Source: Owenia fusiformis
Lineage: Eukaryota
Reading direction: 5' to 3'
Assembly: GCA_903813345.2 (NCBI GenBank)
Contig: CAIIXF020000001.1
Location: 3,348,001 to 3,412,000, forward strand
DNA length: 64,000 nucleotides
Shown here piece after piece: positions 1,146 to 41,700 of this stretch; position 1 is the first letter of the stretch; each line of letters begins with the position of its first letter. The notes beneath the pieces are model-generated. The model was not told the DNA's origin. It saw only the letters and a list, made by a program, of their open reading frames with translations, and searched no databases. Made by a program: the position numbers and the translations under genes.

Positions 1146-1155
1146 CTATGATTAC

Positions 1156-4100
1156 CTTCTTTCACAAGGTCAGCAAGCAGACCAGACCACTCCTGGCGAA
1201 ACATGTTAGCTCCTGTGAGACTTCCATCTCCACCAATCACAACAAGGTTTGTAATGTTCTTCTGGATGAGATTATACGCTGCCTTCTTGCGACCTTCACG
1301 TTCGCGAAATTCCTTACAACGAGCACTACCAATGATTGTGCCTCCCTGGAATCATGATAATATTTTGTTTTATATGAGGAAATATGAGGAAGTTTTAGTT
1401 TTCAGGATTAGAAATTTCTAATTTAGAGGGAACATTTCCCTAGCTCTATACCTCAATGCACAAAGCAGTATGCTGTTTATATATTTAAATGAAATGCTCT
1501 ACAATTACTAGCTTATGACAGCTTGGGCTTACCCTTTGAATAATATCCGAGACACTTTTCCAATGAGCTTCAACAATATTGTCTCCTCCATCAACCATGC
1601 CTTGGTAGCCCTACAATATCATTAAGATTAAGTACATCATGATGTATAAGAATTCATACAGGAACAGTCTACCATTTATCAAGTCTCTTTGAATGGGATC
1701 ATGAACACATACATGTATTATTTAATTTATTTACAGAATTAACTTTATACAGAAAGAAATCTAATTATGGTTAAAGAGGTAAAATTGATACAATTAGTAT
1801 AATAAGAACTTCATATAAAAGTTTTAACAGTAGATAGTCTTGCATAAAGCCTTTGTTATACCCCCCCCCGCCCCCCTACATATTTTGAGGTGGCAGGTAA
1901 ATGGGGTGGTACAAAGACTTGATGCAAGGGTAATCTTTACAATTACCAAATTAGCAAAATATCACAATATTCAATTTTTAGGATTTGTAATTAGTGATTT
2001 ACTAGACTTAGATTTACTAGACTACATGTGACTACTATAGAAAACAGAACATAAAGAACAATGTGCCATGCATTCACACTACTGATTAGTATAAATAAAT
2101 AAATTACCTATTTTATATATCTAAAACATGCAAGAGCTAGAGGAGAAGAAGTTTTAATTAAGTAAAATCAAAATTCAAAAAATTATATAACAAAACAGTA
2201 AGACAGATTAACAAAAAAAAAAAAAAATTATGATTAACAGATTAACTTATACAGTTGTACTGGCCAGCACACTGGTTTGAATTAAAGAAATACAAGGTTC
2301 TTAATTTGCCTAAAATGGATAGAAGAGGTACATGTACTGCATTACTAAAGCAGGCAAATGATTAATAATGGCAAAAGATTAATAATGAAGAATCAAAATA
2401 GGGTGTTGATAAATGATAAATGCAGAATCAAATCATACATAACTCATCTTAAGGGTTTATCCCCACAATAAAATCATTATGATTTCTTGGTAATAAAATA
2501 TCCAAACGAGACCATTCATTAACCTACATGTTCCTGACATGTTTCGATATCACTTCAAATACTGCAAATTATTTTGACATCATTTATGATGGGTACATAT
2601 CCAGAATTGCTTATGAGAACTATGATTATCAATATGATAATTAAAGATGCATTGTCCCATTCAAGAAAATAATGCATACAGAACAAACAGAAGATTGAAT
2701 ATGTCTATTGGCTTCCTGGTCATCTCAACCCCAAGTCAACTCAACCCAGTAAAACTCAACCCCAAGTCAACTCAACCCCAAGTCAAGTCAACCCCAGTAA
2801 AACTCAACCCCAAGTCAACTCAACCCTGTAAAACTCAACCCCAGTAAAACTCAACCCCTATATTTCTATATATTGATAAACTTACAAGAAAGTTTATTTC
2901 ATAAAAATAATTTTGATTATTCAGTTTGTGATTTTCATTATTAGACCACTGCCTTTTTAGATTATAGTTAATAATGAGTTTATCTCCAAAATCTCAACAT
3001 GGTACTAATAGGATTAAAATATGGGTCATTTTATTAATCTTGCTAATACATTTGTTTTGTTGTAATCCCTATGAGGTTGACACTCGTGATTATTTGGAAA
3101 ACTGGAACATGACCATTGCTTTCCAGGGGCATAGCCAGCTTTCAGTCAGGAGGGATGCGATCGCCCAAAAAATCAGGTTTTCAGTCAGAGGGTGCCGATC
3201 GTGGCATAAGCCAGCCAAAAAATATGTTTTGACAAAAAATGATGCAACTTCCTTCAAAATTGGGAGAGGGTGTGTGCACACCCCTCCTGGCTACGCCTAT
3301 ATGCTTTCAGGCTATTAATTAGTAAATGTTAATGGTTTTGTTAATGCATGTTCATATAAATGAAAAGTTATATTACATTGTTAATTATTTCTAAATTATC
3401 TGAAATTTGATTTCAAAAGATGTCTTAAATTAAATAATCGTGACAACTTGATGAATTATCCTTGAGCTTAACCGTTTTTTGGAATACTTTTACAACTTTC
3501 TATTCAAATTATCATGCAAAATGCTAGATTTTCAGAAATGAATGACTTAAATTATTCATCATAAAAAATTAAATTAGACATTGCACAAATGAATAGGGTT
3601 GAGTTTTACTGGGGTTGAGTTTTACAGGGTTGAGTTGACTTGGGGTTGAGTTTTACTGGGGTTGACTTGACTTGGGGTCGAGTTGACTTGGGGTTGAGTT
3701 GGACTGGGTTGAGATGACTTGGGGTTGAGATGACCTGTCACCGTCTATTGTGTCTATATACAGGGTAAGTCAAAAAACACTCATGTATTTGTTTTTGAAA
3801 AGCAATCAACTGAGTTCATAAAAACATTTCCACTGAAAAATAAACATCAATTTGAATTTTTCCAAAATAGCAAAAATATGTCCTCAGGTATTTTCAATGG
3901 AAATGGTTGAAATAAACTAGGGGTTCTTTTTGTCCCACCCTGTATATGTAACAATTTTGGTAAATATATTTATGGGACTTTCTATTCTCAACGCTTCTCC
4001 ACTAGTTTTGATAAAGAAATGTGAATGGCTATATCAGATATTTTTTGACAGCCAGATTCAGCCCTAAAAAATTATGTCAACATAATAGACTGATCTGAAC

Positions 4101-20768: not shown

Positions 20769-23700
20769 ATGCTTCCAATTAACCCTATAGGACCTGGTAA
20801 GTCTTTATATCTAGTTTCTATTTAGGTTCTAACTAGCAGGACGGAGAAAAGGCTGTTACAAATTGAATATTTGAGAAATTTATGAATCACTCAAATCAGA
20901 ATGAGGAGATCAGAAAATTGAAAAATGTGGAATATATTCTAAACATTAGATGTATTTAAGATATTTTGAGTTTTTTTATTTTGCCAATAGTCCACGACTC
21001 TCAAATGAGATGGTTTTGATATATATTTTCGCCTCTGCTTCTCTAACAAGCATATATTGTCTGGCATGTTTCACAAACAAAGGCTGAACAAAAAGTGAGA
21101 AACACAAAACATCAATGTGTTACACTGAACCAGTGTAGACATTATTCAGAGGTCGCATGAAGTGCTTTAATGGAATAGCCTTTAGAATGTTCATGCTTTA
21201 TCTGGAATTTGATTTTAGAGGCACGGGGGGTTGTTTGCTGAAATTTTTTATGCTCTGTATCGAAATATGGTGTTAAAAACTTGTTGTCCAAAAATTAAGA
21301 ACCTTAGGAACATGTCGGGTAAATGGTCTTCTTATTTTCGTACAATCATCCTTTGTAGAGACTCATCTTTACAACTATGATTGAACATTTGATTTTAAAT
21401 AATGAAGAAAACATTTCTTTACAAAATGTTAGCAAAACAATAGAGAAATTCATAAAACATTTTCCCCTGATAATTAGGACAGTCTTTGCTTTGAGCATTT
21501 TTATTATCAAAGTCTCTTCGATGTTGTCTTTCAACTTTTGATATTTGATGATTTTAACTATAAGTTTACATCTAAAGAAAACTGTCCTCTCAGATTTTAT
21601 TAAAAAATGTTCATGTCCCTTTGGTAAAATGAAAGACATTTTCACATCAATATCAAAAGTCTGCCAGTGCCATCAATTTCTTTTATCAAGTTTAATTGTA
21701 TCATTAATAGATTATGTAAATCTAATATTCAGTTCAATTTGTCATAATACCCTTTGTCCTGAGTTGATTTAGAGTTCACCTGTATGAACAGTTTTGGTAT
21801 GATGTTCTCACAAGTTATCTATTCTCTAAAAAGCCAATTTAGCCTTATCCGCACTGGAGTGTTCAGGTGAATTTAAAAATCTAAGAAGTTATAGAAATTC
21901 AAAAATTCAAAGAACTTTCAACTTATTATAAGATGACCTTTTACAGTTAAAATAACCCATAATATATAAAATTTTCCTCATGTTAACAAGAAATACAAAC
22001 TTTCAAGACAATCAAGGATTCTAATTTATTTCTTACTTATTTCGTACACAGCGAATGGTTTTATACCAAGCTTGTCACCACCAGACTTTAACCAAAACAA
22101 CAAGGACTCTTTACGTACAATGCTGCCAGGTAAATATAACACTAAGCAGCAACGTTACCTCTAAATTGAACAGAATACAAAATATATATTCAGAAGTACA
22201 ATAGTAGGGGATATTCAACCCTGCGCTGTCTGTAATATAACGTTATTCATTGCATGCAATGTTAGAGGCAACAAACTGTACCATGTACAGGGGCAATGAA
22301 ATGCAGATCAGTCAAGCCCCCAAGGACGTAACATATGGGTATACTGTAATTAAAGCTTTTACCCATATACTGGGGTGATAAAAATGATTTCAGTACCCCT
22401 GATAATTTACCTATCATTTTACATGTTTGTAGTCACCTGTCTATAGATTACTTTTAAACTCAGTCTGTCTACCTATATGTATCTAGAATAAAATCTATAG
22501 TTAGTTTCTTTAGACATTCATCTTCATAGTGTGTAACTATCCATACTTTGTATAGGTAGGATTCTATTCCATCCAAGAACAGTATAAACTCTTCACTTAA
22601 TTGATACTAATTTCTCATATATTATTACCTGGAAATGATTTTTTATTTGGCTATATCCATGTCTGGAAAACAGTTCTAAAGAAGGCCACGGGTCATTTGT
22701 TATTTAGGGAATACTCATGAATATTAAGTATCGAAACCTGCTTCTTATATCACTTCAAATGGTCTCCAACCTTTTTTATGACATTTGGCAGACGGGTTGG
22801 TGTATGGCATCTATAATAGTTTGCAATAACTTACAAAGTTGTGACATGTTGTGTTAATGCCTTGTTTATAATATAAAATTATCAAGATGTCTTGAGTTGA
22901 TATCAGTGCAATTCTTTTATCAAAAATTGTTTTGATTCTTGAATATAGGCCTACCCTGTGAACTTCATGACTTTCTTCCTGGTTATTAGTTTTTTTCAAT
23001 GATCCGTGTCTAATTTAATTCATTTTTCTTTCAATTGCTATCCTATCTTGTTACTTTTTCAAATAAAGAATAAGTGAAAGTTGCATTATATTGCAGGGGC
23101 AAATCAGGAAGTTATCAAAGGGGATCCGAAAATGCATTTTGAAAATATTTTGTTGGAGACACATTTGAAAATTTTGCCCCATTTTTCAAATAAAATTACC
23201 TTATTTTCCAAAAAACAAATTAGGCATTATTTGAAAACGAGGCCCAAATTATATAGTCTCATCCATATGACAATTGGCCCATGTTCTTTTTATATCCTTT
23301 TGTTTTGTTGGTGTTTATTATAATTTGGGGAATCCCCATATGACTAATTTGAAACTAAGTCACAAGATTTGTAGTGGTACTGACATATATTTCTGTACAC
23401 ACTTCCTTACCTATCTTCCTCCACCCCTAGCCCCACCCATGCATAGCAGATGAATTCCTAAATTCCTTACTTGGGAAGTATTCTTTCATGTTTCCCCAGC
23501 TAATCACTCAGTACTCAACTACCTACTGAACCCCTGATGTACTGTCTTGTTTAGTTGTGAAAAAAGAAAAAATTTTTGTGAAATACCATGTAATATCATC
23601 ATGGGAAGATCTTAAGTAATATCACAATGGGTTACAATTTACTCTTAACAGTGAATTGATATTGGTATTTCTTGGGCCAACTAGTCCAAGCCATGATGAC

Positions 23701-26700
23701 ATATTAAAATTTGAAAGCGTTTTCCTTACTTTCCTGGTGCGTCGTAAGCTTTGACCCAGAGGCTCGATGCCAGTTGAATGATTTGGGCCTGCTAATTTTT
23801 TCATCTGATAATGTTTTGATTTGGCCCCTACATCCCAAATCCTTATGACGCATCCTACTTCCTCTTTTCCTAGTTTAATCAACTTTGTACGTGTCATTAA
23901 TACAATGCACTGTGTGTAATTACATCACAATAGAAGTGAAGTTAGATTAAATTCACAATTTGCAAAATATTTTATCTTTCTTACTAGTACTTTGGAAAAT
24001 TGCCTGATGAATTGGAGTTTAAACAAAATGATAATCAGTTGTTTATTTTTGAAATATTATTTGCAGTCTGTTTTGCACAAAAACAAAATTATTATGTTCC
24101 TCCACCGATATTATCAAAAATAGCTTGCATTTATCAGCATGTTAAACATTGAGAAAGCACCAATCTATCAGGCACATTTTATAGTCTGGTGGTCGATGGT
24201 ATTACCCATTTTATTTCACAATCACAATTACACATCCATTTTATGTTAATTGTAATTTTATGTGTAATGGCTTGTAATTGTGAATAAACTACTGTCCAGG
24301 GCTAAAGCTGAAATGAGTTAGAATTGGTTGCTGGTTTGCATCAATATTTTTAGGTGAAAGGGTACTTTTACATTTTGAAATTTTGTATTTGTTTTACTGC
24401 ATAAATGTCTGGCTCATATGCCAAAATGATCTTTTCAGCATGTTTCTCCAAAACAAATGTTTTATCATCTTTGATATTCTTCAGTATCAATGGATGTTTA
24501 TATGAGACACATTCTACCAGCATTATTAATATTTATTTCATTAATAATTAGTTGGTCTTAATAAGTCATTAAAATTATGAAAAAATGTTATTTTATTTTA
24601 GGTCAACCTGGCCTAGGGGGACAGCAGGTTGGTCCCCCAAGAGGAATGCCCCCAGTTGGGATGCCACCGGGCCCACCTGGGGGACTCCCCCCAGTAGGTA
24701 TGCCACCGGGAGCTATGCCTCCAGTAGGTATGCCCCCTGTTGGAATGCCCCCTGCCCAACCGCCTCAAGTGCCCCAACAACAAGGAATAGAAGGAGGAAG
24801 ATCGGAGGGCAGTCCCATCTCAGGCTTCCAATGTCCAGCAAGACCTAACCATGGTGTTGATGGTAGACCCATCATGCTGCGTGCCAACCATTTCCAAGTG
24901 CGTATGCCACAGGGCTTCATACATCACTACGATATTCAAATCACACCAGATAAATGTCCAAGAAGAGTTAACCGGTAAGTACAATATTAATGCATTTGAA
25001 AGATCTAAGTAATTATTATATCACTGTCATATTCCCCACTCTCTTATTGGTCTATACCATACACTTGACTAAAAATAAGAAGGCTTATTCATCGCCCAAG
25101 CACTGAAATTAAAAGAATGAAAGATGCACAAGTATTCACCTCCATAGTATGAAATATTTTTGGATTATCATCCCTTTTGCTGGTATGCTCTGGCTCTGGC
25201 TTTTAAATTCTTCATATATCTTGAAAAATGTTATTCTCTGGCACTTTACGAAAATAAGATGTTCCCCTTCTGTGTATAACATGAGTGTATTTGTTGAAAA
25301 CAGGAAACATATTTTTCCCAACAGGTGCTTATATTTGCCATCTGCTGTTTTCTAATAAAAGAGCTGATTATATGATCTTGACAGTTGACAAGCACCTTCA
25401 TCATTAATATTGGGTTGCTTAATGATTTCTATTTATTTATTTTCTTCCTCGAATGTTATTCATCATTCTTACTAGCCTATATCTTGTTTTGTAATGCATG
25501 TGAAATTATTGATGGTGCAGTAGAATAAACTATGAGTTAACATTTTGACAGTCAACTTCCACCCCTTCCTTGCCAGGTTCACAAAACTGCAAATTTTATT
25601 CTATTATGTTATCTAATGTCCCCTTGTGCCTGCTTTTTAATTAAATAATTTAGTCATTATTTATTTTTATTTTAGTGAAATCATAGAAACAATGGTGCAA
25701 GCCTACAGAAACCAAATATTCAATGGCCAGAAACCAGTATTCGATGGAAGGAAAAATCTGTACAGTCGAGATCCTCTACCAATAGGGCGAGATAAGGCAA
25801 GTGAAATATGTAACCTAGAAACTTTAAGCCATAAAGTCTATATGTCAGTACCCTGCGTGCAGAGTCTAGTTAAACTACACTCTGCCTAGGAGAGACTATA
25901 TTGCAGTTTAGTAGCCCCGCCCCCACGACGGGTACCGGTGACAGTTTGGGTAATAAATCACTTTTGACCTACGCGCTGACCTTTCTTCCACCAATCAGCG
26001 AGCTTGAAAAAACATACGCCAAATGCGTTCTTATTAAATATGCGCATGTCATTGGTCAATTCCGGGCTCAACAATGACGTCAGAAGGAATGACCATATAT
26101 AGAACGTCGGTCAAATTTGGCCGACGAACACTGATTGGCGCGGTGAGTTCACAGGTTTATTTTAGTTTGAAAGAGTGAAGACGAAGCTCTCTTTTAAGAA
26201 GTGAAGTCAAACGAATGCAAAGGGTAATATGTCAGAATTAGAAAATGTTCATACATTCACAAATTGTGTCAACTTTTACTTTGTTTCATAAGTAGTGTAC
26301 TACTGTAAGACATGTGCATATTGAATGCCTATGGAGCTACAAAAACTAGGGAAGTGTCCACTACAGAATTGTTTTCAGTTGAAACATGTGTTCAGTAAAA
26401 TGGAGTGTAGCATGTTTTACTGCACAATACTTCCTATATGTCTGGCTTCAACGTAAATAATATGAATTGAAACCAAACAAACACTTTTATTTTAGATTGA
26501 AGTTGAGGTAACTTTGCCTGGAGAGGGTAAAGATCGTGTATTTAAAGTTGCAATCCGCTGGGTCGCCCAAGTCAACCTATATGCTTTGGAAGAGGCACTT
26601 GAAGGACGAAGCCATGCAATGCCATTTGAAGCAATCCAGGCACTGGATGTCGTCATGAGGCATTTGCCCAGTATGACGTAAGTCTTAATTATAACGAAAT

Positions 26701-29700
26701 AATTATAAGAATATATAATTAAGTGTATATACAGAATATGATTCGGTATGAAACGCTGAATTGGAGATTCTTAAACTAAATAAAATATTCGCTTTCAGGG
26801 TGAATGTTCAGCTTCAGTATTCAGGTTTTTAGGCAAATTGTTTTGTATTAATGTCAAATAATACACAGAAATTCTCATTTAATCTCCAGTGTGACTATTG
26901 GGATTGATTACATTGCTGAGATCAATTTTCTGCTGCCAGTCATGAAGGAAATAATGTTCTAGGCATGATTATGACGCACATGCACCAACATCCTGTAATA
27001 ATTATCCCATCGAATGAAGTTGGGAGGATATAGAGAACGCCTCTGTCCGTCTGTCTGGGCAATAGTTGGAATTCCATTGACCCAATGGCCAATATTGTTT
27101 ATATTTTATAACATATGACATATGCCCTATATGAGTAAAGTTGATTTTGGAAATGGCCACCAGTTTTAAAATAGCCACCATTTTAGTGTCAATTTTACAG
27201 TATTTTAGTTACAATATGTAATTCTGCATTACTTAAAGTAAAAACATGGCAGCCATGTTGAGTGATTTTTTGTTGAAATTTTACGCATGAATACTTGAAG
27301 CATATTACACTAATGACAGTGTAGTGGAGCGATTTTGGTGATATTTTTTATGTGAATTCTTATTAAAACTTTAAAGGCATGTATTACCTAATGACACTTT
27401 GGAAAATATTGGGAGCCATTTCCAGGAAATTATGGCCATTTTTGTTTGTGTTATTCTACATTTTTGCTATAATTGGAAAAGAAATAGAGCAATTTTGTTG
27501 ACACTGTTAAATTATATATCTGCTTTATATGGGCTTATTAGCCTATTGCAGATTATTGACATAGACATATCTTTTAGCAATACATCTATGGTTGCCATTT
27601 TGTGACATGATTTCTAGCAGTGTTGTCTGACACTCAATAGATGTTTGATAGGATCTTTCTCTTTGGCGTTGCTGTTATCTAGTTAGATATCCATTTTCAG
27701 GTCGTTATAGAGAAACCAAGCCTGGTGATTTTCATTACTTGAGTTTTCAATTTTGTGACATTCCTTTTCAGGTCCCTGGAGAGCAGATCAGATTTTCCAT
27801 TGATCTGTGAATAAATGTGCATCATATTAACTGCTTTGATTACTTACTAGGTATACCCCAGTAGGGCGTAGTTTTTTCTCACCCCCAGAGGGTAATTATG
27901 ACCACCCATTAGGCGGTGGGAGAGAAGTTTGGTTTGGGTTCCACCAGAGTGTACGTCCATCTTTGTGGAAGATGATGTTGAACATTGATGGTAAGACTGA
28001 ACTGTGTATATTTCCATGTATTGTTCTATGGTATGTGGCGGACCTGGCTAGCTGGCTTTTTCAATACAGGTGTAGGATGTGGCTACTTTGCATTTTTGAT
28101 AGCATGCATGGATGATCTGTTGTGCTGGTGTTTCTTTCATTATTACCCAAAGCATTCACATCAAGAATTTCTTGTGAAATACAATTCTTTCTGGCTTAAA
28201 CAACAACAATATCAACAATATGTTCACAATTTTTATATATAGTATATTCACATATTTATTTCACAAGATTCACACAGATTGATCTCTCATATTAATCTTG
28301 TGACATCATATATTGGGATGTTCAAAGTCAAATTGTATTTCACTAAGAAGGGAAATCTTGGTTCATACATGTTTGCTTGGTGTGTTTGTCTGCCTGCTTA
28401 TATATATTGGGATTCCATCCCCCAAGTGCACCTAATAAAAGAACTTTAAGGTACACCTTAGGGATGTTCCCTGGAGGTTTAAAAATAGTATTTTTGGTAC
28501 TTTTGTCATTCATAGTTTTCTGAGGTTCTAATTGGCAACAAAAGATATAAAACTTAAAAAATTATATTCTGTTAGTGTGCTTTTTTCCAAGAAATATTTG
28601 ACAAAATTGGGCGTGGCACTACCTCATTGAATCCCATGTAAACAATCAGATTTCACCCGAAACACAATTTGAAGTATTTAACTTTTCTTAAACTCACAGG
28701 AACACTTAGTTATGATATGTACATTACATTTGGAAGAAAGAAAATTTACCAATTAATGTTCATAATTTTCAACTTTGTCCAGGGTACATCCTTAATGGAT
28801 TTAAAAAACAGTGAATTCAAAACATTACAGGCTGGCATCTTGATAGAAATTGAGTTGTATGAATCCATGTTTTTTGGAGCTTGGTGATAGCTTAAGCTTG
28901 GGGATGGCTTTCTTAGTTATAATATAAGCAGGCAGATGCGTCATGTCACCGTTTTTGGTGTACTTTGTTTTAACTTCAATATTATGGTTACCTACAGCTT
29001 TAAAGAAACAATCAATTGAGTAGCCTAATTTGAAGTTTAGCAAAGTGCATATTCAATGACTGCCCCAGGTTCCCATGGTTTTTGTTGCTTGCTTTGAGTT
29101 TTCACCTTTACGTAGTCATGTGTTTAATTGCACAGATATACCCCAGTCGGCCGGTCTTTTTTCTCACAACCGGAAGGCTACAATCACCCCTTAGGTGGAG
29201 GCAGGGAGGTTTGGTTTGGATTCCACCAAAGTATCAGACCAACTCTATGGAAAATGATGCTTAACATAGACGGTAAACAAACGCAATGATATATTATTGT
29301 AATGGCCTTGTTAGTATAAATGCTTTCTTGGATTGGTGCTAGAATCTTAGACATTGTATTAAGTTGTTTTTATGTGTTACTTGGTCCGATGCATGTATAT
29401 AGTAAGATAAACTATTAAGAGGAAAATATTTAAATAATATGTGTTTTTTCGCTGCATATTTACTCTAGTATTCACATATTTCTTTGTTAGTTATGTTGAT
29501 TAATAAAAATACCTAGAGATATGCCTGCCAGTAAAAGAGCAAGATCTCTAGTAATAAAAATTAAAGTGATCAAATTTACTTTGTTTATGCTTATTTGAGG
29601 AAAGCCAGAAGGATGAGGCTGGTAGCATCTAATTTCACAATCTATTTTATTTAGTTTCTGCCACTGCCTTCTATCAGGCACAACCTGTGATAGAGTTCAT

Positions 29701-32700
29701 GTGTAAAGTCCTTGAAATGAGAGATGCCAGTGAACAACGTCGCCCACTTACTGATTCGCAACGAGTTAAATTCACCAGGGAAATCAGAGGTAAATGCTAC
29801 ATTCTGCTTTATTATTTTATTCAGTGTCCGCAACTGCGTTCTATAAAGCTCAGCCTGTCATCGAGTTCATGTGTGAGGTCCTTGACATGCGAGACGCCAG
29901 TGAACAACGACGTCCACTAACTGATTCTCAGAGAGTTAAATTCACCAAGGAGATCAGAGGTAAACAAATAAACAATATCTGTGAGTTGTGAAGCAAACAA
30001 ACAATGTTGTTGCGTGTTGGTGTTTGTAAACGTAGTACTCATAAGTCTTGTATCAAGCCATTGTGTACCCCCCCCCCCCACCTCAGCATTAAATGCTTTA
30101 TGAACCAGTGTAAGACCGATTTGGCAAATTAGAGCGCAGTAGTAGAGACAAGAGAGCAACCCCTTTGCTTTCAATAAAAATATACCACCAGTTATTATAT
30201 GCAGTTCATCTATCCATGTGTAATGCATTCATTTAGGCAATAAAGACGCTAACACCTGACACCTGGCTATTGCCTCATGAATAATTGGTTACACCCAAAG
30301 TACTTACAAATAATCCTCTATGAAAAGAGATATGATAATGGGGGAAATAACCTTGATGCAAGACTATAAACGCATGAAAGTTGATGTAAATATTATCTTT
30401 AATAAAGCTGGAAACTTGCTTGTAAATTTTACAGGTCTGAAAGTGGAGATCACACATTGCGGCACCATGAAACGAAAATACAGAGTTTGCAATGTTACAC
30501 GTCGTCCAGCGCAGACACAATCGTAAGTTAATTTATCAGTTTATCTTGTGGCTGTATTTTTGATGAGTGACTGGATTTGTTATCAAATAACTTGCGTGGT
30601 TAGCCATTTCCCACACTTGTAAGAGTATAGGCAACTTGGATTTAGTGAGTGAATCCATAAATTGGTACATGTACAATTATAACCTGTGAAGTGAACACCT
30701 CCATAACTGGAACACTTTTAAAGGTCACTTACCCATTAGCTTCATGTAAAATGAACTTCTGTACGTGGAATGCCTTCTAAGAGGACCATTTACTATTTAA
30801 AGGTACCAAATGTGTTCTACTTACACAGGTTTTACTGTATATCATAAAATCTACATGTGAAATATGTTTTTTCAGCTTCCCACTCCAGCTTGAATCTGGA
30901 CAAACCGTGGAGTGCACAGTGGCCAAATACTTCTTTGAACGATACAAAATGAAACTTCAGTAAGTATAAATGCAAATTTTTATTGGAACTGGTAGTGTTG
31001 GAATCCCCATGTTGTTGATTATACAGGGTCTTGATAGTTCATCCATGTTCCTCTACATTGAGAAAACGATACCTTCATCAAACTTACTTTGATGTTACTA
31101 TAACAAAATAAGAATAAACATTTAAACTTGTTCAGCATTTTCTTGTCAATGTCAAATGTTTTGATACGATAACATAAAAAAGTGATTTGATTTGTGAATC
31201 CATGTTAAAATTCTTATGTATATTACAGTGAGATGTTTCCTGTTATTTCAGATTTCCTCACCTGCCATGTTTACAAGTAGGTCAGGAACAGAAGCATACC
31301 TACCTTCCCTTAGAGGTATGGAGTTACCTTATCACGAATTAAACCTTATTTAAGAGGCAAATTAATCATTTATATACATACATATAAAATATGAGCTGAA
31401 TAACTTCAACGTCTATGATGAAAAAAAATTAAAAATTACCACGGTGTGTTTTGCTATTATTTGATTCATTGTCAAATGATTATGTGCTTATCTCAGTTCA
31501 CCTTATGATCACCTCAGTTATTCTATAGCTATCAATTCATTTTTCCATGACTATCACTTTATTGTACCACATCTTTCACCTTATTTATTCTGCAAATGTA
31601 CTCCAAATATTATGTTCCACTCAATAGTTTCCTTCCTGAAAAAATATTAGCCTGACTCATTAAAACTCACTCTTAAATTGTGGCCTCGGAGTTAATTTTA
31701 CTCCTAACCTATACTATGTGTATTACATCATGTGCATTATTACATCATGTGCATTATTACATCATGTGAATTAGGTGTGCAGGGTCATTGCTGGGCAGAG
31801 ATGTTTGAAGAAGTTGACTGACAACCAGACCTCCACTATGATCAAGGTAGTTATATTTTTACATGTTTATCTTGTAGGTTTGTGTTATAGTGGCTGGACA
31901 ACGCTGTATGAAGAAACTCACTGACATGCAAACATCAACCATGATCAGGGTATTCTTTTCATTCACATATTATACATGTGTTATATACCTGTTATTAGTA
32001 GCAAGCATGGTAAAGTTTGAACCTATGGACCATACATGCGTCATCGTGTGCTACTCTTAAAAGTGTCATAAATGGATACGTGGTGATTAGATTGCTGTTG
32101 TTAAACTCTGAAATGAGTCATACAGCAAAAGTAAATTTTCTGTATTCACATACAGATTTTTTTGTACATGGTGATGTATTCTTAGCCGCACTTTATTAGC
32201 TGAGAAATCTAATAGTTTAGCCTATTGTATGTAATTATCAAAGAGGTAATTACAAGTACCTATATGTAACCTGAAAAAAGTACAGGTTAAATGAATATGT
32301 TACTGTATGAATTTGTTCCTTCCGAAATTTCGGTTTTCTGAAAATTATGACATTGATATCTGGTAAAAGTTCAAAATCAATTCATGGAAGTGACCCGGGA
32401 ATATGTTGATAAAATGCAATCAACATCTTCATTGCAACCATGTATATCAAACTTCTACCATGCACTATTAGATAAAGTGTAATGTAGCATGCATGAGTAC
32501 ACATTCATCCCTTCTTATCCGCTATTGAAAATTGTGCAATGATACAACTTTTTTATTTAAATAGTGCAATGTTTAGGCAAGCAGAAATTTATTTTAGAAA
32601 GGCCTGCTTTAGTTCAGTTCATTGTTCTACGGAAGTTGTAGAATTTATGTATACTCATGTATTTCTATTAGTCATACTCAAGTAGATAATCGAAATGTGA

Positions 32701-35700
32701 TTATTAAATTTTTGTCTAACTAAGTTCTCTAATTTTTTTATTAAATGTATGAACTCGTATTTCATCAATGAAAATTTGGTCTAGAATCTAGACTGCATGT
32801 TGATTAGATGATTATTCCTATTTGCATGATTTGTTGTCTTTCTTTGAGAATATATCTTCAGAATATGATAAAGGATTCCTTTTCAATATGTAATTCAGAT
32901 TGAAAGTTCTATATACATGTTCATGTGTCAGGTGAGTTGATCTGGATGAATAATAAATATACACATGGATGTCTGGGATATGACAGACCATTGAATCCTC
33001 AAAGCACTAAATCCTTTAGTAGGATTATGAGCCATTTAGGTAGGCATCGGTATAGATTTTGGACATGGTACACATGTAAAAGGCCCAACAGCCAGTTTAA
33101 TCACTGTACACTGCCTACCTAAGTCTTTGTGACTCCTATTTGTGAAGAGTTATTTTATGTCTGACAATTAACATATATTGTATTGTTATATTGTAGGCAA
33201 CTGCCAGATCTGCACCAGATAGAGAGAAAGAGATCAATAGCTTGGTAAGTCAGCATTCCCCATTAAAGTAATTATTACCACTAGGAATACATTCAAGCTT
33301 AAGCAGTCTAAAGGCTCATTGAATTTCCCTGTCTTAATGTTAAATAAATGATATATAAAATGTTATCATATGGACTATCATTGTTGGTAAATGCTTAGAA
33401 GTGAATATACATTGTTCAACACATCAGTGACTGGTGCTTACAAATTGATTGCTTTATACATTAGATACATATCACTTTGTTTTCTCATATACATTTATTA
33501 TACATGTATGTGAAATTGATTATATGCTGGAGATAAAACATGGTAAGATACTCAGATACGCAGCTGTAATTTTGCCAAGCTAGAAATTTTTTGTCCAAAA
33601 TTAAGGTCGAGGATAAATATAAGTTAAATGATCAAACTAGCCTTTCCTTTAACCCTTATCCTCCCAAGACTAGATTGTTTCATGATTCTATACTTCTGCC
33701 ACCAGAAGTTGTGTCGATGCCAAAATTATTTCTCCCAACTTCTTTGTGACCAAAATATTGTTTAAAAATCAATGATACCAGAAACTTATTTGTAAGGTAA
33801 ATAAAGAAAATGTTGGAACATACATATCAGTACATTTTTAAGCATTATGAAATTCCTGACATTTTATTACTTGTCACTGGGAGATAAGGGTTACATAGGA
33901 ATGTTAGTTTTGCCTAAATGTTTAATTTCTTCATTGTACAGTATGCCAGAAGGAGGAATTTTTGTAAGAGTTTACTTGGTTATAATATAAAGCCAACAAG
34001 TTTGACCATTTCCATGTATTTCTATATTCATGTGTTTTTGTGATACACTTTTCGAAACACTCAAAGTTTTAGTTTTTAGAGAATTTTGTCTTTTGCCCAT
34101 TTTTATATCACTTTCTTTTCTTAAATCTTTATATCTAAAAAAAGAGATGATGAATTTTTTTGTCCATTTTTTATCAGTTTCTTTTCTTATAAATTAATAT
34201 CTAAAAAAGAGAAATTAACTTCCAATCTCCTTTCAGTCTACTTCTGTTGCCCTTGTATTACAAAAGTCATCCCCAAGTATCATTCTGCTGTGTTTCTCCT
34301 TTTGATTAAATCTCCTGTCATTAGAATTGTGTTGAAATGATTAGCATTATGTTGTATAACTCAAACAAGCTTAAAATTATATAGAGTGAGCTTGAAAATA
34401 TTTGCACTCCATTCAAATATGTCGGAGAAGTTGACCAGAGTTGACGGGAGGACAGTAATTGCACCCATTGATCTTATTTCTTGCCATGTGCCTAGGTACG
34501 CAAAGCTGACTTCAACAATGACCACTACCTACAAACATTTGGCATCAGCGTGGCGAACGCTATGACCGAAGTTCAGGGTCGTATCTTGCCCCCGCCTAAA
34601 CTACTCTATGGTGGAAGGGTAGGCATACATTATACAACCCCCGATCAAAGACCACAATAATACAGTCATACAGCATAATGAATCAAATTATTTAATTCGC
34701 ACAATAAAATTAATTCTCATCAATGAAGTCAGTTTATTATGCTCCATTCATGTATAGTTTGGGATTTTTCATATAAAGAAATGGTTGCATTTCTTTCAAA
34801 CCATATTATGCTGTGTGTTTAGAAATTATTGTGTCCTTTGATGTTTATTTTTCAGTCTGACTGGCAATAATAGGCTGAGAAACAATGCATATGACATTTC
34901 TGTCAATCCCAGCAGTTGATATGCATATATGGCCTAATATTGCATGTGATATGGTGAGAGGTGTGCAATGGCTGGTCACTCACACTTAACCAATCGGGTG
35001 CCTCTGTCTGTCTACTTATAAGCCGCCATTTCACACCTCATCACCATTGCTGTCTCAGTGAGAGGCATGTTTGTGATATGAAAGGTCCCGTCACTTCTGA
35101 GTGTTCGGAGTGCCCTCTGGTGATGTATGTTTGTGATATCGTGTTTTGCGACCCATTCTGTTGCCATTAGGTTCGTAAAGCTGATTTCAACTCGGATCCC
35201 CATCTACAACTGTTCGGAGTGAGTGTGTCCAACAGAATGGTAGAAGTCCAAGGCAGAGTTATCCCACCCCCCAAACTACTGTACGGAGGAAGGGTATGTT
35301 AAGAAGGACCACGCCTGTGATGCATGCGTTGTTTCAAAATACAGACAAGCTGAATGTTCTGAGCTGCCAATCATCATCTATCCCATAATGCACCTGGTGC
35401 TGTCTGCTCTTTCACTTCCAGATAATTCCCCATTCAAAAACTGTCAATTTTTGGTCTAAGAAGTATTGGAGAAAAAAAATGAAAAACAAGAAATAAAATC
35501 TGTTACATTTTGGGGAAATGTCTTGCAGATGAGAGAGTGGCAGGCATATTGTTATATGTATGTCTTGAGGAAGTGTAGATGTTTTATTCGAAAACCTACG
35601 TGTTTTGTCGAGATTTTCTCTTTGTTTAGTTTGTCTAATACTCTAACATCACTTCATAACCTCTGTACAAGTAATCATCAATCCAAGCACTGTTTTAGAC

Positions 35701-38700
35701 ATCAAACATGGTTTTTGAGAAACCGAAAACTTAAAGAAACTGGAAAATGATTATTACTTGTTTTGTTAGATCTAGTAGCTCAGATAATTTCAGTTTTGTT
35801 GTCTTTATAGTTTTAGTTTATTTTCTATTTTGGTTTCAGTATTTAGCCATAATATCCCAAAATTATCTTTTTAAAATATTTTTAATGCATGTTCATTATT
35901 ATTTAATTTTTGTATGCAAATTCTGAAATCACTTGTTTACACTGGACATGTATTATAGTGCAAATTATCCATTGCAATGTTGTTCCTTTAAATTAGTGCA
36001 GGTAGGTAGGTATTCACCATATTCACCTCATATATTGTTATCCCATATGTGCTTTTAGAATTCATTCCCAAGTGGCTGAACAGATTCTCATTCATATATT
36101 TAGTCCTAGATCATTTCCCAATTTTTTGTTTTGTTTTTATGTCACCACCAAAAGTGGTGACATATTATTAAAGTCTCCAACTCTTTGTGGACTGTGTTCA
36201 GCAGTTGATGTTCGGTGGTTGGTGTTCAGCATCTGTAATAAATGGCAGGTAGTGACATTTTGCATGCTGATGCCTTGTTAATAATTGAAATGAAATTGTT
36301 TAGTTTTGAATTATTATGATTTCATAGTAATTTTATTTTGACTTGAATGTAACCTATTCAATCATGATTAACCAAACGTGTGATGTGCTCGAGTGAAAGT
36401 GTGTGTGTTTGGATCAGTGTGATAAGAAAGAAAATAAAAAGTAATATCTGGAGTACATTTCATCAAGAAAGGTTTTAAACTCAATGATGTACAGGTGTGT
36501 AGATTTGAGTAAGCTTTGTATTTGGTAAATGCTCCAGATGTAACACTCCCATGTGATCGATGTATGAATGTGGCTTTATTCCCAACTGGCTTACATCTTG
36601 ATGAGAACATCTTTCATTTACATGTGCTTATGTAAAGCTCACATGTTCTTCACATGAAAACACATATTTTGCAATTATAAACAGAAGCACTATGAGATAC
36701 AAATTCGAACATTTTCTCATCACCAAATTTTGCACTTTGTCATTTCATCTTAGAAATCAGTATAAAATTTTTATGTTGAAAATATATTTACTATTAGTTT
36801 TATTATATCCATCACACTATTTGCAACTCAAGACAACACTAATAAAGTTTTTAAAGAATTACCAACTGAACATAAAATCTTGTTACCATGACAACGAGAA
36901 ATCAGATTTATACAAACATTGATTTTACTTGTAGACGAAAGCCCAGGCTATTCCCAACCAGGGAGTATGGGACATGAGAGGTAAACAGTTTTACAGTGGA
37001 ATAGAGATCAGAGTCTGGGCAATTGCATGTTTTGCACCTCAGCGTACAGTCAGAGAAGATGCTCTAAGGTAAAAACAATATAGCCCCCAAGAGTGCTTTA
37101 AATAATAATTATTCAATAATTGTATATATGAAATTATAAACAGTTTGTTGAGGGGAGAAGTACTCATGAAAATATAGAACAAATGAAGTAAGAATGATCC
37201 ATCCCCTGGACAAAGATCACATGACTGAGGTCAAGGTCACGAGGTAACTGAGACTTCAAACTGTTAGAATCGAAGAGTTTTACTTCTGAAATGCTAAGCA
37301 AATAAAGATAAATTCAACAAATAGTAAACTTAACTCAAGGGTACACAAGAACAAGTTAACTTGTGTTGCTTTGGGCACTTTAGAGAAACAATCATTTTCG
37401 ATAAATAGTAAATAAAAAATTTTCCAGTTTTATGATGAGAAAAAAGCCTTGCTATTTAATATTTATGAATTATTTTTCAGAAACTTCACATCCCAGTTAC
37501 AACGTATATCTAACGATGCAGGAATGCCTGTAGGGGGTCAACCATGTTTCTGTAAGTACGCCACAGGCCCTGACCAGGTAGAGCCCATGTTTAGATACCT
37601 GAAGAACACATACCAGGGCCTACAGCTCATCGTCGTTGTGCTTCCTGGAAAAACACCCGTATATGGTAAGTGTTGAAATTTTATTACAGTAAAGACATTT
37701 CAATTGAACAACTCTCTACAAAGAAGTTAGTCCCATTTACATGTAATATAAATGAACCCCCACTATCTATGAGGAACTATTTGGCCAATACTGAATGTGT
37801 TCTGTTGACACAGGTTTTATAATATGAAGTAAAACCTGTTTCTTTGAATACCAAAAGGGTTCCCTGGGGTTTGAAAAACAAAAATCCCTGGCCTGGAAAA
37901 GTTCATGAATTTCAGAATTTCCTTTAAAATGTCTAAAATTGATTTTATGCTGGTAGCATGTCTGTGATGTTCTTTTTTGTGTAATGCCAAGAATAACAGT
38001 TCCCTTTACTACATGGAAGTTTCTATGTATTTTAGCTGAGGTTAAGCGAGTGGGTGATATTCTATTTGGTTTGGCCACTCAGTGTGTTCAGGCAAAGAAC
38101 GTCATTAAAACATCCCCACAGACCCTCTCTAACCTATGCCTTAAGATCAACGTCAAACTAGGTGGCATCAACAGTATACTCATGCCTAGTGTTAGGTAAG
38201 TCATACATTTCTGCTATAGGTTCATTGTAAACAAAATTATATACTGTATTCTCTGTATTGGCTTGGGAGTTTATGAAATTCGAAATACATCCTTCAGACC
38301 ATTCAAATAAGCGCCCATAAATGAACGTTAAAAATCCCTGGTAGTTTCATATGTGGCAATTTTCTTGCCAAGAATGGCTTATTCTCATTTGAATTTATAT
38401 CTTAAATTTTTAATTGAATGACAGATCATCATTTTCAAGTTCACAGCCCTGAAGTGCGCAGAAGCTTTCTTGGTTACATGTTGAAACATTGTTCTTAAAC
38501 TTGAACATTTCCTTCATTCATATATCAGGCCAGCAATATTCCGAGAGCCTCTCATCTTCATTGGTGCCGACGTAACTCACCCGCCAGCAGGTGACGTGAC
38601 AAAACCCTCAATAGCAGCCGTTGTGGGCTCACAGGATGCCCATCCCAGTCGATACGCCAGCACTGTCAGAGTCCAGTCTCACCGGCAAGAAATTATCACC

Positions 38701-41700
38701 GATCTAGCCGCCATGGTCAAAGAACTGCTCGTCCATTTTTACAAGTCCACCAAGTTTAAGCCCACCAGAATCATCATGTACAGGGATGGTGTCAGTGAGG
38801 GCCAGTTCGCTGAGGTTAGTAGCTTGCTTGATTACTCATTGAAATCAAGAATCGCAACATTTTTAAATGTTATATTCAATATTGAATATAACATTTTTGT
38901 TAACTGACATTCAGTATCTTTAACAAATGGTACTTTTGTGACTGCAGTCATGTGATGACATTTTTTAAAGTTAAAATGGTGCTTTGTTGCTGTTGAAATG
39001 AGAAGAATATATACTATTAAGAGAATACTTTTACACTTGCTTGTGTTCTTCATTGAATTCAGGATTACTTTGTGCTTCCATCTGTTCTTTTTTCAATTAA
39101 ATTCAAATTGCTTCTGGTTTATAAGTAAAACATGATTGTTGAAAATCTAATTAGCCATGAAATGTATATGCCCCTGGCCTTTTTCTTTTTCGTGTATTGT
39201 ATGAAACATTGTTTGATTGACTTTTAATTTAATAAATTGAATTGAACTGAATTGAATTGAATTGAACTGAACTGAATAACAATTAGAGTAAAACCTGTAG
39301 AAATGAACACCTTTGGTACCTCAAATTTAGAAGGTGTTCCACTTGCAGAAGTTCATTTAGCAATATTCAGTTATTCAGTAATAGTTGAAAAGTGTTCCAT
39401 TTATGGGAGTGCTTCTCTTACAGAGGTCTTCCCCTTCACAGGTTTTACTTTAGATAACTTCAGTTGTTCTTGAAGTAAGTAGTATGTTAATGATTTTATA
39501 AAAAATTCTTGTTAGGTTTTGGTGCGTGAGCTACGTGCCTTACGTGAGGCCTGCATGAAGCTGGAAGTTGGTTATCAACCAGGAATCACATTCATTGTGG
39601 TCCAGAAGAGACATCACACAAGACTCTTCTGTGCAGACAGGAAGGACCAGGTAATATAATACAGAGTTTCATGTCATCATTGAAAAGTTAAGCTACATGT
39701 TTTTTAAGAAAACGTGTACATGAGTGTCTAATATTATGACCCCAGGGATTACAGAAAGGACCAGGTAATATAATACAGAGTTTCATGTCATCATTGGAAA
39801 GTTAAGCTACATGTTTTTTAAGAAAACGTGTACATGAGCGTCTAATATTATGACCCCAGGGATTACAGGAAGGACCAGGTAATATAATACATGATTCATG
39901 TCATCATTGGAAAGTTAAGCTACACGTTTTTTAAGAAAACGTGTACATGAGTGTCTAATATTATGACCCCAGGGATTACAGAAAGGACCAGGTAATATAA
40001 TACAGAGTTTGATGTCATCATTGGAAAGCTGAGTGTGTGATGTGTAATATTATGACCCCAGGGATAACCATCCTCATCTCACATGACTCTTCCAGGGACC
40101 TAATTACTACTATTTCCCTTATGCCTTTATTCTCAGTAAATACAATGAAAAGAAGAATTTATGTTAACTGAAAATGTCTAACTTCTGAAGTTTGTCCTGA
40201 TTGGTTAACAAATGGCTACATATTTTTGGGCATTGACCTAATTTCTACTCAGCTATAAACTGAACATAGACATAAGCTATTGTAGAATGAATCATCACCT
40301 TCTCTAGATTCTAAATTGATTTGTGTAAGAGTGCTAACATTTCTCATGTTTGTTGTTAGATTGGGCGCAGTGGTAACATTCCAGCAGGTACAACAGTGGA
40401 TGTAGGTATCACCCACCCCACAGAGTTTGATTTCTACCTATGCAGCCATGCTGGGATCCAAGGCACAAGTAGGCCTTCTCATTATCACGTCCTGTGGGAT
40501 GATAACCGATTCACAGCTGATGAGCTGCAGATGTTGACATATCAGCTGTGCCACACCTATGTACGTTGTACCAGAAGTGTCTCGATTCCTGCACCTGCTT
40601 ACTATGCACATCTTGTGGCATTCAGAGCCAGATATCACCTTGTAGAGAAAGATCATGATAGGTAAAGTAGCATATACCTATTTTATGTCTAGTCCTGTTT
40701 TACTAAGTACTTATTATTGTGAGTTCATTTTTATGTCCCCATCATATGTGATGGAGAGATTACTTTTTAACAACTGTCAGTCTCTCGGTCTATTACTAAA
40801 ATCTAGAAGTTTAGGGTATCAAATGAATTAGGGAAATTTTTTAGTCCTTAACATTCATTTTTACATTCACAGTAAATGAGCATTTCAAACTTTTTTGCAA
40901 AATCTATACACTTAATGATGACTGCATCAGGCTGACGTGTTTAACCATGTGTAAAGTAAAATTTTGATTCAATCACACAAGTAAATTCATAGAGGTAATA
41001 AGCAGTATAAGGGTTCACTGGGTAATACATGGTGCCCTTAAAAGAACTTTCTAAAGATTTTTTATCTCTCTTAACTCTAACTTCATTCTATGTATACTAT
41101 AGCCTGTCTAATCTGAACGCAATTTAGATCTGCCAAAAGTTTTCTGATCACCAGGTATTCTCCTTTTGAGGTCTTAAGATCAGAGCATATGAAATAATGG
41201 ACTAAAAAAGATTCACATTGAGAGGTGTTCAATCATATAATAGGTGTTTGGATATACATGTTTTACTGTAGTTTAACATGGGGACATTCTACACTCTTGT
41301 GCTTTATTATTTCAGCAGAAACAAAGCAAATATTACCCAACAGAAAATGTCATTAAAAGAAAATGCCTATTCCAATCCATAGTTCACTTGTTATAATTTT
41401 TATTTATTTACATTAATTTACATATTGTTTTGATATTAAGTACATTGAACCCCCTTTACATTGTATACTGGCTTTCCTCTCTCTGGGGGGTGGTAGTTTG
41501 CCTATAAACCCGTCTGTTAAGTTTGTGAAAGAAGTTTATAACTTTGCAGTCTGCATGATACTGCAACAAGAAAGATGTTCAACATGACATAAAACATTAA
41601 GTTCTCAACAAACTCCAGTACTACAGTAGTATTGGAGAATATGTAACAGTGTATCTTTGGTTCATAAACTTCTTACTCTAGTTCCATTTTATATAAATGA

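What the first reader, a model, noticed from the sequence alone, without database searches (positions are those of the whole stretch)
31775..31949. Helix-7 itself is alternatively encoded (11a/11b, 31-nt spacer)
The 72-nt exons encode KKLTD(N/M)QTSTMI(K/R). In human AGO2 this is the helix-7 region (around M364/I365) that shapes the guide seed and contacts the seed duplex. 11a has TDNQ...MIK and 11b has TDMQ...MIR. From recall, N is the vertebrate state, M the Drosophila Ago1 state, and K/R distinguishes human AGO1 from AGO2. The 31-nt spacer (31847-31877) is too short to splice. Inference: splicing could tune seed-pairing kinetics.
Basis: partly seen in the sequence, partly recalled or inferred. 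Interest (0 to 1): 0.8.

Follow-up and report, generated by a model that had tools for sequence, protein, structure and literature searches.

The report
Duplicated helix-7 exon in annelid Argonaute
The microRNA Argonaute gene of the annelid Owenia fusiformis carries two intact tandem copies of the small exon that encodes most of helix-7, but only the first copy appeared in the RNA data examined, so alternative use of the second copy is likely from its conservation but not shown.

Summary
Exons 31775-31846 (11a) and 31878-31949 (11b) are each 72 nt, in phase 0, with AG/GT splice sites and a 31-nt spacer. They encode two versions of human AGO2 residues 343-366, which include 11 of the 13 helix-7 residues. 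The window is the miRNA-class Argonaute gene of Owenia fusiformis.

In three raw RNA-seq runs and one contig set, every listed junction uses 11a (320 upstream-exon-to-11a and 323 11a-to-downstream-exon reads). No 11b junction is listed. Depth arithmetic leaves about 0% for 11b in two runs and at most about 10% in the third.

Even so, 11b is not a decaying copy. Third codon positions are near saturation (15/24 differ), while only 9/48 first and second positions differ. P = 1.8e-4 if 11b had been neutral since the duplication.

Three other duplicated exon pairs in the same gene are used alternatively in the same reads. One has a 35-nt spacer, and one switches completely between sample types.

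Best reading: a mutually exclusive exon pair with 11a as the default, and 11b used rarely or only in unsampled contexts (confidence 0.55).

The parts
22051..43740 (+). miRNA-class Argonaute gene of Owenia fusiformis (coding exons as mapped)
   Evidence: P0001 (970 aa, 'Protein argonaute-1 / unnamed protein product [Owenia fusiformis]') is 100% identical to the queried N-terminal exon (24598-24975); tblastn exon map. ArgoN, ArgoL1, PAZ, ArgoL2, ArgoMid and Piwi all above the Pfam cut-offs; 1472 bits to human AGO2.
31252..31315 (+). constitutive exon upstream of the pair (ends ...HTYLPLE)
   Evidence: joints 30959>31252 and 31313>31773 (cut +2)..
31721..31773 (+). 17-nt tandem repeat (3.1 copies, TATTACATCATGTGCAT) ending 1 nt before the 11a acceptor AG
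   Evidence: 97% matches, score 99. Its function is unknown; a possible regulator platform is inference only.
31775..31846 (+). exon 11a, helix-7 version [24 protein letters not shown]; the form seen in all RNA examined
   Evidence: 63/69/188 reads into it and 77/89/157 reads out of it in X13/X14/X15, plus one X9 contig. Acceptor pyrimidines 10/18, donor 6/9 to consensus.
31847..31877 (+). 31-nt spacer (GT...AG) holding the 11a donor and the 11b branch region, polypyrimidine tract and acceptor
   Evidence: No 31846>31878 joint is listed. That 31 nt is too short to splice is established knowledge plus inference.
31878..31949 (+). exon 11b, helix-7 version [24 protein letters not shown]; intact and under coding constraint, not seen in RNA
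   Evidence: Acceptor pyrimidines 13/18. Donor AGG|GTATTC matches 4/9, the weakest of the 13 exons tabulated. No listed joint and no depth attributable to it.
33197..33244 (+). constitutive exon downstream ([16 protein letters not shown]), carrying the last two helix-7 residues
   Evidence: joints 31844>33195 (cut +2) and 33243>34495/35170..
27851..27990 (+). duplicated pair A, copy 1 (ArgoL1; 140 nt)
   Evidence: the X9 contig joins 27851-27989 to 29654-29787. Depth is 0 in X13 and X14 and 0.31 in X15.
29136..29272 (+). duplicated pair A, copy 2 (137 nt)
   Evidence: bin depth 34.5/31.4/100.8 in X13-X15 and 0 in X9.
29655..29789 (+). duplicated pair B, copy 1 (L1/PAZ; 135 nt)
   Evidence: 58/56/179 reads enter it from pair A copy 2.
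29790..29824 (+). 35-nt spacer of pair B
   Evidence: boundaries after cut shifts.
29825..29959 (+). duplicated pair B, copy 2 (135 nt)
   Evidence: 21/14/33 reads in and 17/12/30 reads out.
34496..34618 (+). duplicated pair D, copy 1 (ArgoL2; 123 nt)
   Evidence: 24/22/29 reads in. X9 contig depth 38.6.
35171..35293 (+). duplicated pair D, copy 2 (123 nt)
   Evidence: 61/72/134 reads in. X9 contig depth 19.7.

Best explanation
An old tandem duplication of the 72-nt exon that encodes hAGO2-equivalent residues 343-366 produced 11a and 11b. This segment is the strand and loop leading into helix-7 plus 11 of its 13 residues. Only 31 nt separate the 11a donor from the 11b acceptor, so the two exons cannot be spliced to each other, and at most one should enter an mRNA. 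This exclusion by crowding of U1 at the 11a donor against U2/U2AF at the 11b branch site and acceptor is inferred. 11a is the default and supplied all, or nearly all, transcripts in the four runs examined (shown). 11b has the weakest donor of the exons tabulated, so it should need help, or repression of 11a, to be chosen (inferred). Its codons have been kept under protein-level selection since the duplication (shown statistically). It is therefore most likely translated somewhere: at a low level, or in a cell type, stage or condition not sampled here. That would match pair A of the same gene, which switches completely between sample types (shown). Choosing 11b would change six residues: R>V, V>I and I>V at positions 345-347, L>M at 353, N>M at 359 and K>R at 366. 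The last two lie on helix-7, and position 366 is one of the basic residues reported to touch the target t7 phosphate. The expected effect is a modest shift in how helix-7 docks and how fast seed pairs 6-8 form or break (inferred, untested).
For: Anatomy: equal length, equal phase, AG/GT on both copies, 31-nt spacer.

Coding constraint on 11b: differences by codon position are 6/3/15. pS is 0.86 (saturated) against pN 0.19. P(<=9 of 48 first and second position differences) = 1.8e-4 if 11b had been neutral since the duplication. In simulation, 0 of 20,000 neutral copies kept an open frame, <=6 aa changes and both splice dinucleotides.

11b is the more orthodox copy. Of 166 helix-7 segments from other organisms, 124 are closer to 11b, 32 tie and 10 are closer to 11a. 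One unnamed contig (L055) carries an exon 23/24 identical to 11b.

Precedent in the same gene and the same reads: pair B (35-nt spacer) splits 58:21, 56:14 and 179:33. Pair D splits 24:61, 22:72 and 29:134. Pair A uses only copy 2 in X13-X15 and only copy 1 in the X9 contig.

A weak hint in X15 only: summed depth in bin 31772-32102 equals 72 nt x 227, whereas depth at 31834 is 203. This is my arithmetic. The neighbouring intron bins are 0.
Against: No joint to or from 11b is among the 15 listed for X13, X14, X15 and X9. In X9 the bin depth of 7.98 is exactly 36.7 x 72/331, that is 11a alone. In X13 and X14 the bin totals equal 72 x 95 and 72 x 108, against measured 11a depths of 97 and 109, which leaves nothing for 11b.

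The only database protein of this species uses 11a (P0001, cluster of 1). No protein holding 11b was found, though that database appears to hold no transcript-derived Owenia proteins, so this carries little weight.

None of 55 related loci from other organisms has a second helix-7 exon.

If 11b has been idle only for the most recent half of its history, the binomial test no longer rejects neutrality (P = 0.126). With 24 codons all these statistics are coarse.
Confidence: 0.55

Rival explanations
1. 11b is a retired exon. It was a working alternative for most of its history but is no longer spliced in, and it has not yet had time to decay.
For: No 11b junction is listed and no depth is attributable to it in 4 of 4 runs. 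Its donor is the weakest of the 13 tabulated (4/9). Neutrality over only the recent half of its history is not rejected by the binomial test (P = 0.126).
Against: The frame is open, both splice dinucleotides are intact and the polypyrimidine tract is good (13/18). The combined simulation for half-history neutrality gives 0.0024. Pair A copy 1 is equally invisible in X13-X15 yet is the only form in X9, so absence from a few runs is weak evidence in this gene.
Confidence: 0.27
2. 11b is kept for an RNA-level role, for example as a decoy splice-site cluster that controls splicing of 11a or of the 1.35-kb intron, and not for its peptide.
For: It sits 31 nt from the 11a donor and has a strong acceptor but a poor donor, a layout that could trap or pace spliceosome assembly. 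No RNA shows it in mature mRNA.
Against: The substitution pattern is that of a translated sequence: third positions are near saturation while first and second positions are kept, and all residues invariant across 37 distinct orthologue sequences are retained. An RNA element would not preserve the reading frame in this way. The local fold is no better than shuffles (z = 0.95).
Confidence: 0.08
3. 11b is a recent copy pasted in from another Argonaute gene of the same genome by gene conversion or insertion, so its divergence from 11a says nothing about how long it has been maintained here.
For: 11b resembles the general protostome sequence more than 11a does. Other copies could not be looked for because no whole genome is held.
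Against: The copy sits exactly in exon register with its own acceptor and donor, one short spacer away. The 31 nt upstream of 11a and the spacer share a TTACAT...GT...TAG core in the alignment. That fits a local tandem duplication of exon plus flanking intron. Three more tandem pairs of the same style lie in the same gene.
Confidence: 0.05

Closest known systems
Mutually exclusive exons from tandem exon duplication, with exclusion by a spacer too short to splice (steric hindrance; the alpha-tropomyosin exon 2/3 case is recalled, not checked here)
   Same: The exons are adjacent and homologous, with equal length and phase. Each has its own splice sites, and the donor-to-acceptor distance (31 nt) is below the usual minimum for an animal intron.
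   Different: Use of the second exon is not shown here. Because 72 is a multiple of 3, double inclusion or double skipping would not be cleared by a frameshift, so exclusion would rest on the spacer alone.
Pairs A, B and D of the same Owenia gene (27851-27990/29136-29272; 29655-29789/29825-29959; 34496-34618/35171-35293)
   Same: They have the same architecture and similar divergence. Pair D has 67% nt identity and pS 0.80, and pair 11 has 67% and 0.86. Pair B has a 35-nt spacer.
   Different: For A, B and D both copies are seen in RNA. For the helix-7 pair only the first copy is seen.
NCBI-annotated isoform sets of 'protein argonaute-2-like' in molluscs and a nemertean (Pecten, Ylistrum, Babylonia, Mytilus, Lineus)
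   Same: Isoforms of a species differ by swapping a whole exon-sized homologous block in L2, and by other blocks elsewhere. The equivalent of Owenia pair D is swapped in Pecten, Ylistrum, Babylonia and Lineus.
   Different: None of the nine species sets compared varies in the helix-7 segment. The gene structures of those species were not seen, and some of the Lineus differences may reflect two genes.
Vertebrate AGO1-4 paralogues
   Same: The 11a/11b difference at position 366 is the K/R difference between human AGO1 PAZ (1si2) and AGO2. Both systems offer more than one helix-7 flavour.
   Different: Vertebrates do this with separate genes, whereas Owenia would do it by exon choice within one gene. 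11b's M at position 359 is the common protostome state, not a vertebrate one.

Membership tests
AGO-clade (miRNA-class) Argonaute protein | Full domain set ArgoN, ArgoL1, PAZ, ArgoL2, ArgoMid, Piwi | tested here: met
   all six Pfam families are above their curated cut-offs on P0001 (Piwi 384 bits, PAZ 101 bits).
AGO-clade (miRNA-class) Argonaute protein | Close full-length similarity to characterised miRNA Argonautes | tested here: met
   1472.6 bits to human AGO2 over residues 107-970, and 1451 bits to AGO1. The [19 protein letters not shown] and AYYAHLVA blocks are identical. The slicer-residue numbering is recalled, not tested.
AGO-clade (miRNA-class) Argonaute protein | Binds miRNAs and represses targets | not testable with these tools
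   No small-RNA or biochemical data were examined.
Mutually exclusive exon pair (tandem exon duplication) | Adjacent exons are homologous, with the same length and reading phase | tested here: met
   72 nt each, phase 0, 48/72 nt and 18/24 aa identical.
Mutually exclusive exon pair (tandem exon duplication) | Each exon has its own usable acceptor and donor | tested here: met
   AG and GT are present on both. 11b has pyrimidines 13/18 but a donor matching only 4/9. Competence in vivo is not shown for 11b.
Mutually exclusive exon pair (tandem exon duplication) | A mechanism that prevents joint inclusion | tested here: inconclusive
   The spacer is 31 nt, and no 11a>11b joint is listed. That this length blocks splicing in this species is inferred, supported by either/or use of the 35-nt-spaced pair B.
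Mutually exclusive exon pair (tandem exon duplication) | Both exons occur in mature mRNA, one at a time | tested here: inconclusive
   11a was seen in 4 of 4 runs. 11b appears in none of the 15 listed joints (8 weaker joints were not displayed). Depth allows about 0% in X13, X14 and X9 and at most about 10% in X15. Only four runs of unknown tissue or stage were laid, so it is filed as a candidate, not a proven member.
Mutually exclusive exon pair (tandem exon duplication) | Both copies are under purifying selection as coding sequence | tested here: met
   pS 0.86 against pN 0.19. Neutrality since the duplication is rejected at P = 1.8e-4. Recent relaxation is not excluded.

The most novel reading that the evidence does not exclude
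Owenia diversifies its single miRNA-class Argonaute by exon choice instead of gene duplication. Four either/or exon pairs, all in the L1-PAZ-L2 half that handles the guide 3' end and opens the seed chamber, could give up to 16 proteins. One pair swaps helix-7 itself in particular cells or stages, giving those cells a miRISC with different seed-pairing kinetics.
Probability: 0.3. Interest if true: 0.8.

Novelty: new member of a known kind. Interest (0 to 1): 0.5.

Why it matters
[quoted passage not shown] If an animal can exchange that helix by splicing, microRNA target selectivity could be tuned cell by cell without changing the microRNAs. This would be a natural experiment on a question so far addressed with engineered mutants.

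Even without 11b, the reads show three working either/or exon pairs in L1, PAZ and L2 of one Argonaute gene. Annotated isoforms suggest that similar swaps occur in molluscs and a nemertean. My searches found no paper describing this. The lophotrochozoan RNAi survey PMC11114477 collapsed isoforms to the longest (passage).

Two limits apply. Expression of 11b is unproven, and the helix-7 changes are conservative (K/R, plus a position that varies among orthologues).

Tried and rejected
- Run search: no RNA holder was listed. Three raw RNA runs were offered by species label and one contig set (X9) proved to be spliced.
- Protein database search for an 11b-containing product. One search (proteins of 71-2000 aa) gave 3 hits among 4 candidates, none with 11b; the best were [24 protein letters not shown] proteins of unnamed origin. 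One search (22-70 aa) gave no candidate. There was no positive control, and the P0001 cluster has a single member, so this says little.
- Whole-genome search for paralogues: no genome is held.
- Metagenome scan. One search was too short. One search returned 55 loci. Of these, 49 carry one helix-7 motif, 6 carry none and 0 carry two. Relaxed tblastn found only spurious second hits, and the duplicate-HSP screen found only read-through artefacts. No locus is a close relative of Owenia: the longest alignments are <=80% identical.
- L055 begins 43 nt before its 11b-like exon. Those 43 nt hold no trace of an upstream copy.
- RNA structure. The fold of 31700-31990 is no better than shuffles (z = 0.95). 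The inverted repeat 31857-31875 / 33063-33081 (16/19) is about what chance gives in 1.9 kb of AT-rich intron (my estimate), so it was dropped.
- Reading the 17-nt repeat as a binding platform for a known splicing factor rests on recalled motifs only and was not pursued.
- Literature: six searches found nothing on exon-swapping in Argonautes. The Klum et al. helix-7 paper is not held.
- Supplementary files were not consulted.

Full report
WHAT THE WINDOW IS

The N-terminal exon at 24598-24975 is 100% identical to one database protein, P0001. This is a 970-aa protein named 'unnamed protein product [Owenia fusiformis]' / 'Protein argonaute-1'. tblastn of P0001 on the window maps a plus-strand gene from 22051 to 43740, with most exons at 100% identity. 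P0001 carries ArgoN, ArgoL1, PAZ, ArgoL2, ArgoMid and Piwi above the Pfam cut-offs. It scores 1472.6 bits against human AGO2. The window therefore holds the miRNA-class Argonaute gene of the annelid Owenia fusiformis. A phosphofructokinase fragment (1052-1351, minus strand) and a ribosomal protein L19e exon (15709-16023, plus strand) lie upstream.

THE OBSERVATION

Searches confirm it to the base.
- 31775-31846 (11a) translates to [24 protein letters not shown].
- 31878-31949 (11b) translates to [24 protein letters not shown].
- Both are 72 nt, both are flanked by AG and GT, and the spacer is 31 nt.
- Identity is 48/72 nt and 18/24 aa.

In the ungapped block, P0001 residue n corresponds to hAGO2 residue n-88. 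The exon therefore encodes hAGO2 V343-R366. PMC8632932 gives helix-7 as L356-T368 (passages), so the exon holds 11 of its 13 residues, including M364 and I365.

The six differences fall at hAGO2 positions 345 (R/V), 346 (V/I), 347 (I/V), 353 (L/M), 359 (N/M) and 366 (K/R). Only 359 and 366 are in helix-7. The same paper lists R366 among the basic residues that contact the target t7 phosphate in its simulations.

The PDB sequence 1si2 (eIF2C1) reads [10 protein letters not shown], human AGO2 reads [10 protein letters not shown], and 1r4k ('Argonaute 1'; that it is the fly protein is my recall) reads [10 protein letters not shown].

IS 11b USED?

One run search offered three raw RNA-seq runs by species label (X13-X15) and several contig sets. 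I laid X13, X14, X15 and X9 on 27800-37700.

| Joint | X13 | X14 | X15 | X9 |
|---|---|---|---|---|
| Upstream exon to 11a | 63 | 69 | 188 | one contig, depth 36.7 |
| 11a to downstream exon | 77 | 89 | 157 | same contig |

None of the 15 listed joints touches 11b. None joins 11a to 11b, and none skips both. Eight weaker joints were not displayed. All must have less support than the weakest one shown, which has 59 reads in total.

Depth gives a tighter bound (my arithmetic).
- In X9, the value for bin 31772-32102 (7.98) equals 36.7 x 72/331 exactly. That is 11a alone.
- In X13 and X14, the bin totals correspond to 72 nt at depths 95 and 108. The measured 11a depths at 31834 are 97 and 109, which leaves nothing for 11b.
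- In X15, the bin total corresponds to depth 227 against 203 measured, and the neighbouring intron bins are 0. This leaves room for at most about 10% 11b. It is a hint, not a finding.

Caveats: the tissues and stages are unknown, contigs drop rare variants, and the tool silently removes human-like reads.

IS 11b A DEAD COPY?

No. Differences by codon position are 6, 3 and 15 of 24. Nei-Gojobori gives pS 0.86 (saturated) and pN 0.19. This is the same level as pair D of this gene, both copies of which are expressed.

Suppose 11b had drifted neutrally since the duplication. Then the chance of seeing only 9 of 48 first and second position differences is 1.8e-4. None of 20,000 simulated neutral copies kept an open frame, <=6 residue changes and both splice dinucleotides.

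Now suppose it had been idle only for the most recent half of its history. The binomial test is then not significant (0.126), and the combined simulation gives 0.0024. Long-term coding constraint is therefore shown, but recent retirement is not excluded.

11b is also the more orthodox copy. Among 166 helix-7 segments from other organisms, 124 are closer to 11b, 32 tie and 10 are closer to 11a. 11a's I at position 347 and 11b's V at position 345 are each unique among 37 distinct sequences. One unnamed contig, L055, has an exon 23/24 identical to 11b with the same boundaries.

CONTEXT IN THE SAME GENE

tblastn found three more tandem exon pairs, and the reads fix their borders.

| Pair | Coordinates | Length | Domain | Use in reads |
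|---|---|---|---|---|
| A | 27851-27990 / 29136-29272 | 140 / 137 nt | ArgoL1 | Only copy 2 in X13-X15; only copy 1 in the X9 contig |
| B | 29655-29789 / 29825-29959 | 135 nt each, 35-nt spacer | L1/PAZ | 58:21, 56:14, 179:33 |
| D | 34496-34618 / 35171-35293 | 123 nt each | ArgoL2 | 24:61, 22:72, 29:134; both in X9 |

This shows three things. This gene really does practise either/or exon choice. A 35-nt spacer is compatible with either/or use. A copy can be invisible in some sample types and exclusive in others.

With the helix-7 pair, all four pairs lie in L1-PAZ-L2.

SPLICE SIGNALS

- 11a has the poorest acceptor tract of the 13 exons tabulated (10/18 pyrimidines, tied) and a 6/9 donor.
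- 11b has a good acceptor tract (13/18) but the weakest donor (AGG|GTATTC, 4/9).
- A 17-nt unit repeated 3.1 times ends 1 nt before the 11a acceptor AG.
- The 31 nt upstream of 11a and the spacer share a TTACAT...GT...TAG core. This suggests the duplicated unit was the exon plus flanking intron.
- No local RNA structure stands out (z = 0.95). The inverted repeats in the intron are at chance level.

ELSEWHERE

None of the 55 related loci from metagenome contigs has two helix-7 exons: 49 have one and 6 have none. None of them is a close relative of Owenia.

Among nine species with several annotated isoforms, none varies in helix-7. Pecten, Ylistrum, Babylonia and Lineus swap the block equivalent to pair D. 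Mytilus swaps the next exon, and Ylistrum swaps an N-domain block.

Six literature searches found no description of exon swapping in Argonautes. PMC11114477 kept only the longest isoform (passage). The Klum et al. helix-7 paper is not held. What I say about helix-7 function comes from passages of PMC8632932 and PMC10240194.

VERDICT

The structure is real and old, and both copies have been kept as coding sequence. The layout fits mutually exclusive splicing enforced by a spacer too short to be an intron. The second exon is not seen in the RNA examined.

The most likely account (0.55) is a default 11a with 11b used rarely or only in unsampled contexts. The main rival (0.27) is a recently retired exon. 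The functional claim about seed kinetics is untested, and the residue changes are mild.

I file it as a candidate new member of a known kind. Its interest is moderate and would rise sharply if 11b junction reads are found.

Noticed in passing
window 27851-27990 / 29136-29272: This duplicated ArgoL1 exon pair behaves as a switch. The three raw RNA runs use only the second copy, and the X9 contig uses only the first. The lengths differ by one codon (140 against 137 nt).
   Followed up: partly
window 29655-29789 / 29825-29959 and 34496-34618 / 35171-35293: Two further duplicated exon pairs (L1/PAZ with a 35-nt spacer; ArgoL2) have both copies present in the same RNA runs, at roughly 3:1 and 1:3. 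With the other two pairs, up to 16 proteins are possible from one gene.
   Followed up: partly
proteins P0003-P0070: Annotated Argonaute isoforms of Pecten, Ylistrum, Babylonia and Lineus swap the block equivalent to Owenia pair D. Mytilus swaps the next exon. Exon swapping in this gene may therefore be widespread in spiralians. Orthology of the copies and the gene structures were not examined.
   Followed up: partly
window 31721-31773: A 17-nt unit (TATTACATCATGTGCAT) is repeated 3.1 times and ends 1 nt before the acceptor AG of exon 11a. It might be a binding platform that sets the 11a/11b choice. This was not tested.
   Followed up: no
L055 44-115: An unnamed metagenome contig carries a 72-nt exon encoding [24 protein letters not shown] (23/24 identical to 11b) with the same exon borders. 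The contig starts 43 nt upstream, and no second copy is visible.
   Followed up: partly
window 36075-36405: An intronic stretch has very high read depth on both strands, many variants, 'goes back 31' joints and hundreds of loose ends. It looks like a repeated element that is transcribed from many places in the genome.
   Followed up: no
window 42599-42664: A 66-nt exon encodes 22 residues ([22 protein letters not shown]) near the C-terminal end. These have no counterpart in human AGO2. Whether it is a cassette exon was not checked, because it lies outside the laid stretch.
   Followed up: no
window 30957: About a quarter to a half of junction reads, and the X9 contig, carry ACA in place of the last three exon letters TCA. 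This is a T>A polymorphism, synonymous by my reading (CTT to CTA), and not an alternative donor.
   Followed up: partly
window 31857-31875 and 33063-33081: A 19-nt stretch covering the 11b branch and acceptor region is 84% complementary to an intron site about 115 nt before the downstream exon. By my estimate this is about what chance gives in this AT-rich intron.
   Followed up: partly
window 1052-1351 (-) and 15709-16023 (+): The neighbouring genes are a phosphofructokinase exon (PF00365, 61.7 bits) and a ribosomal protein L19e exon (PF25476, 85.3 bits).
   Followed up: partly
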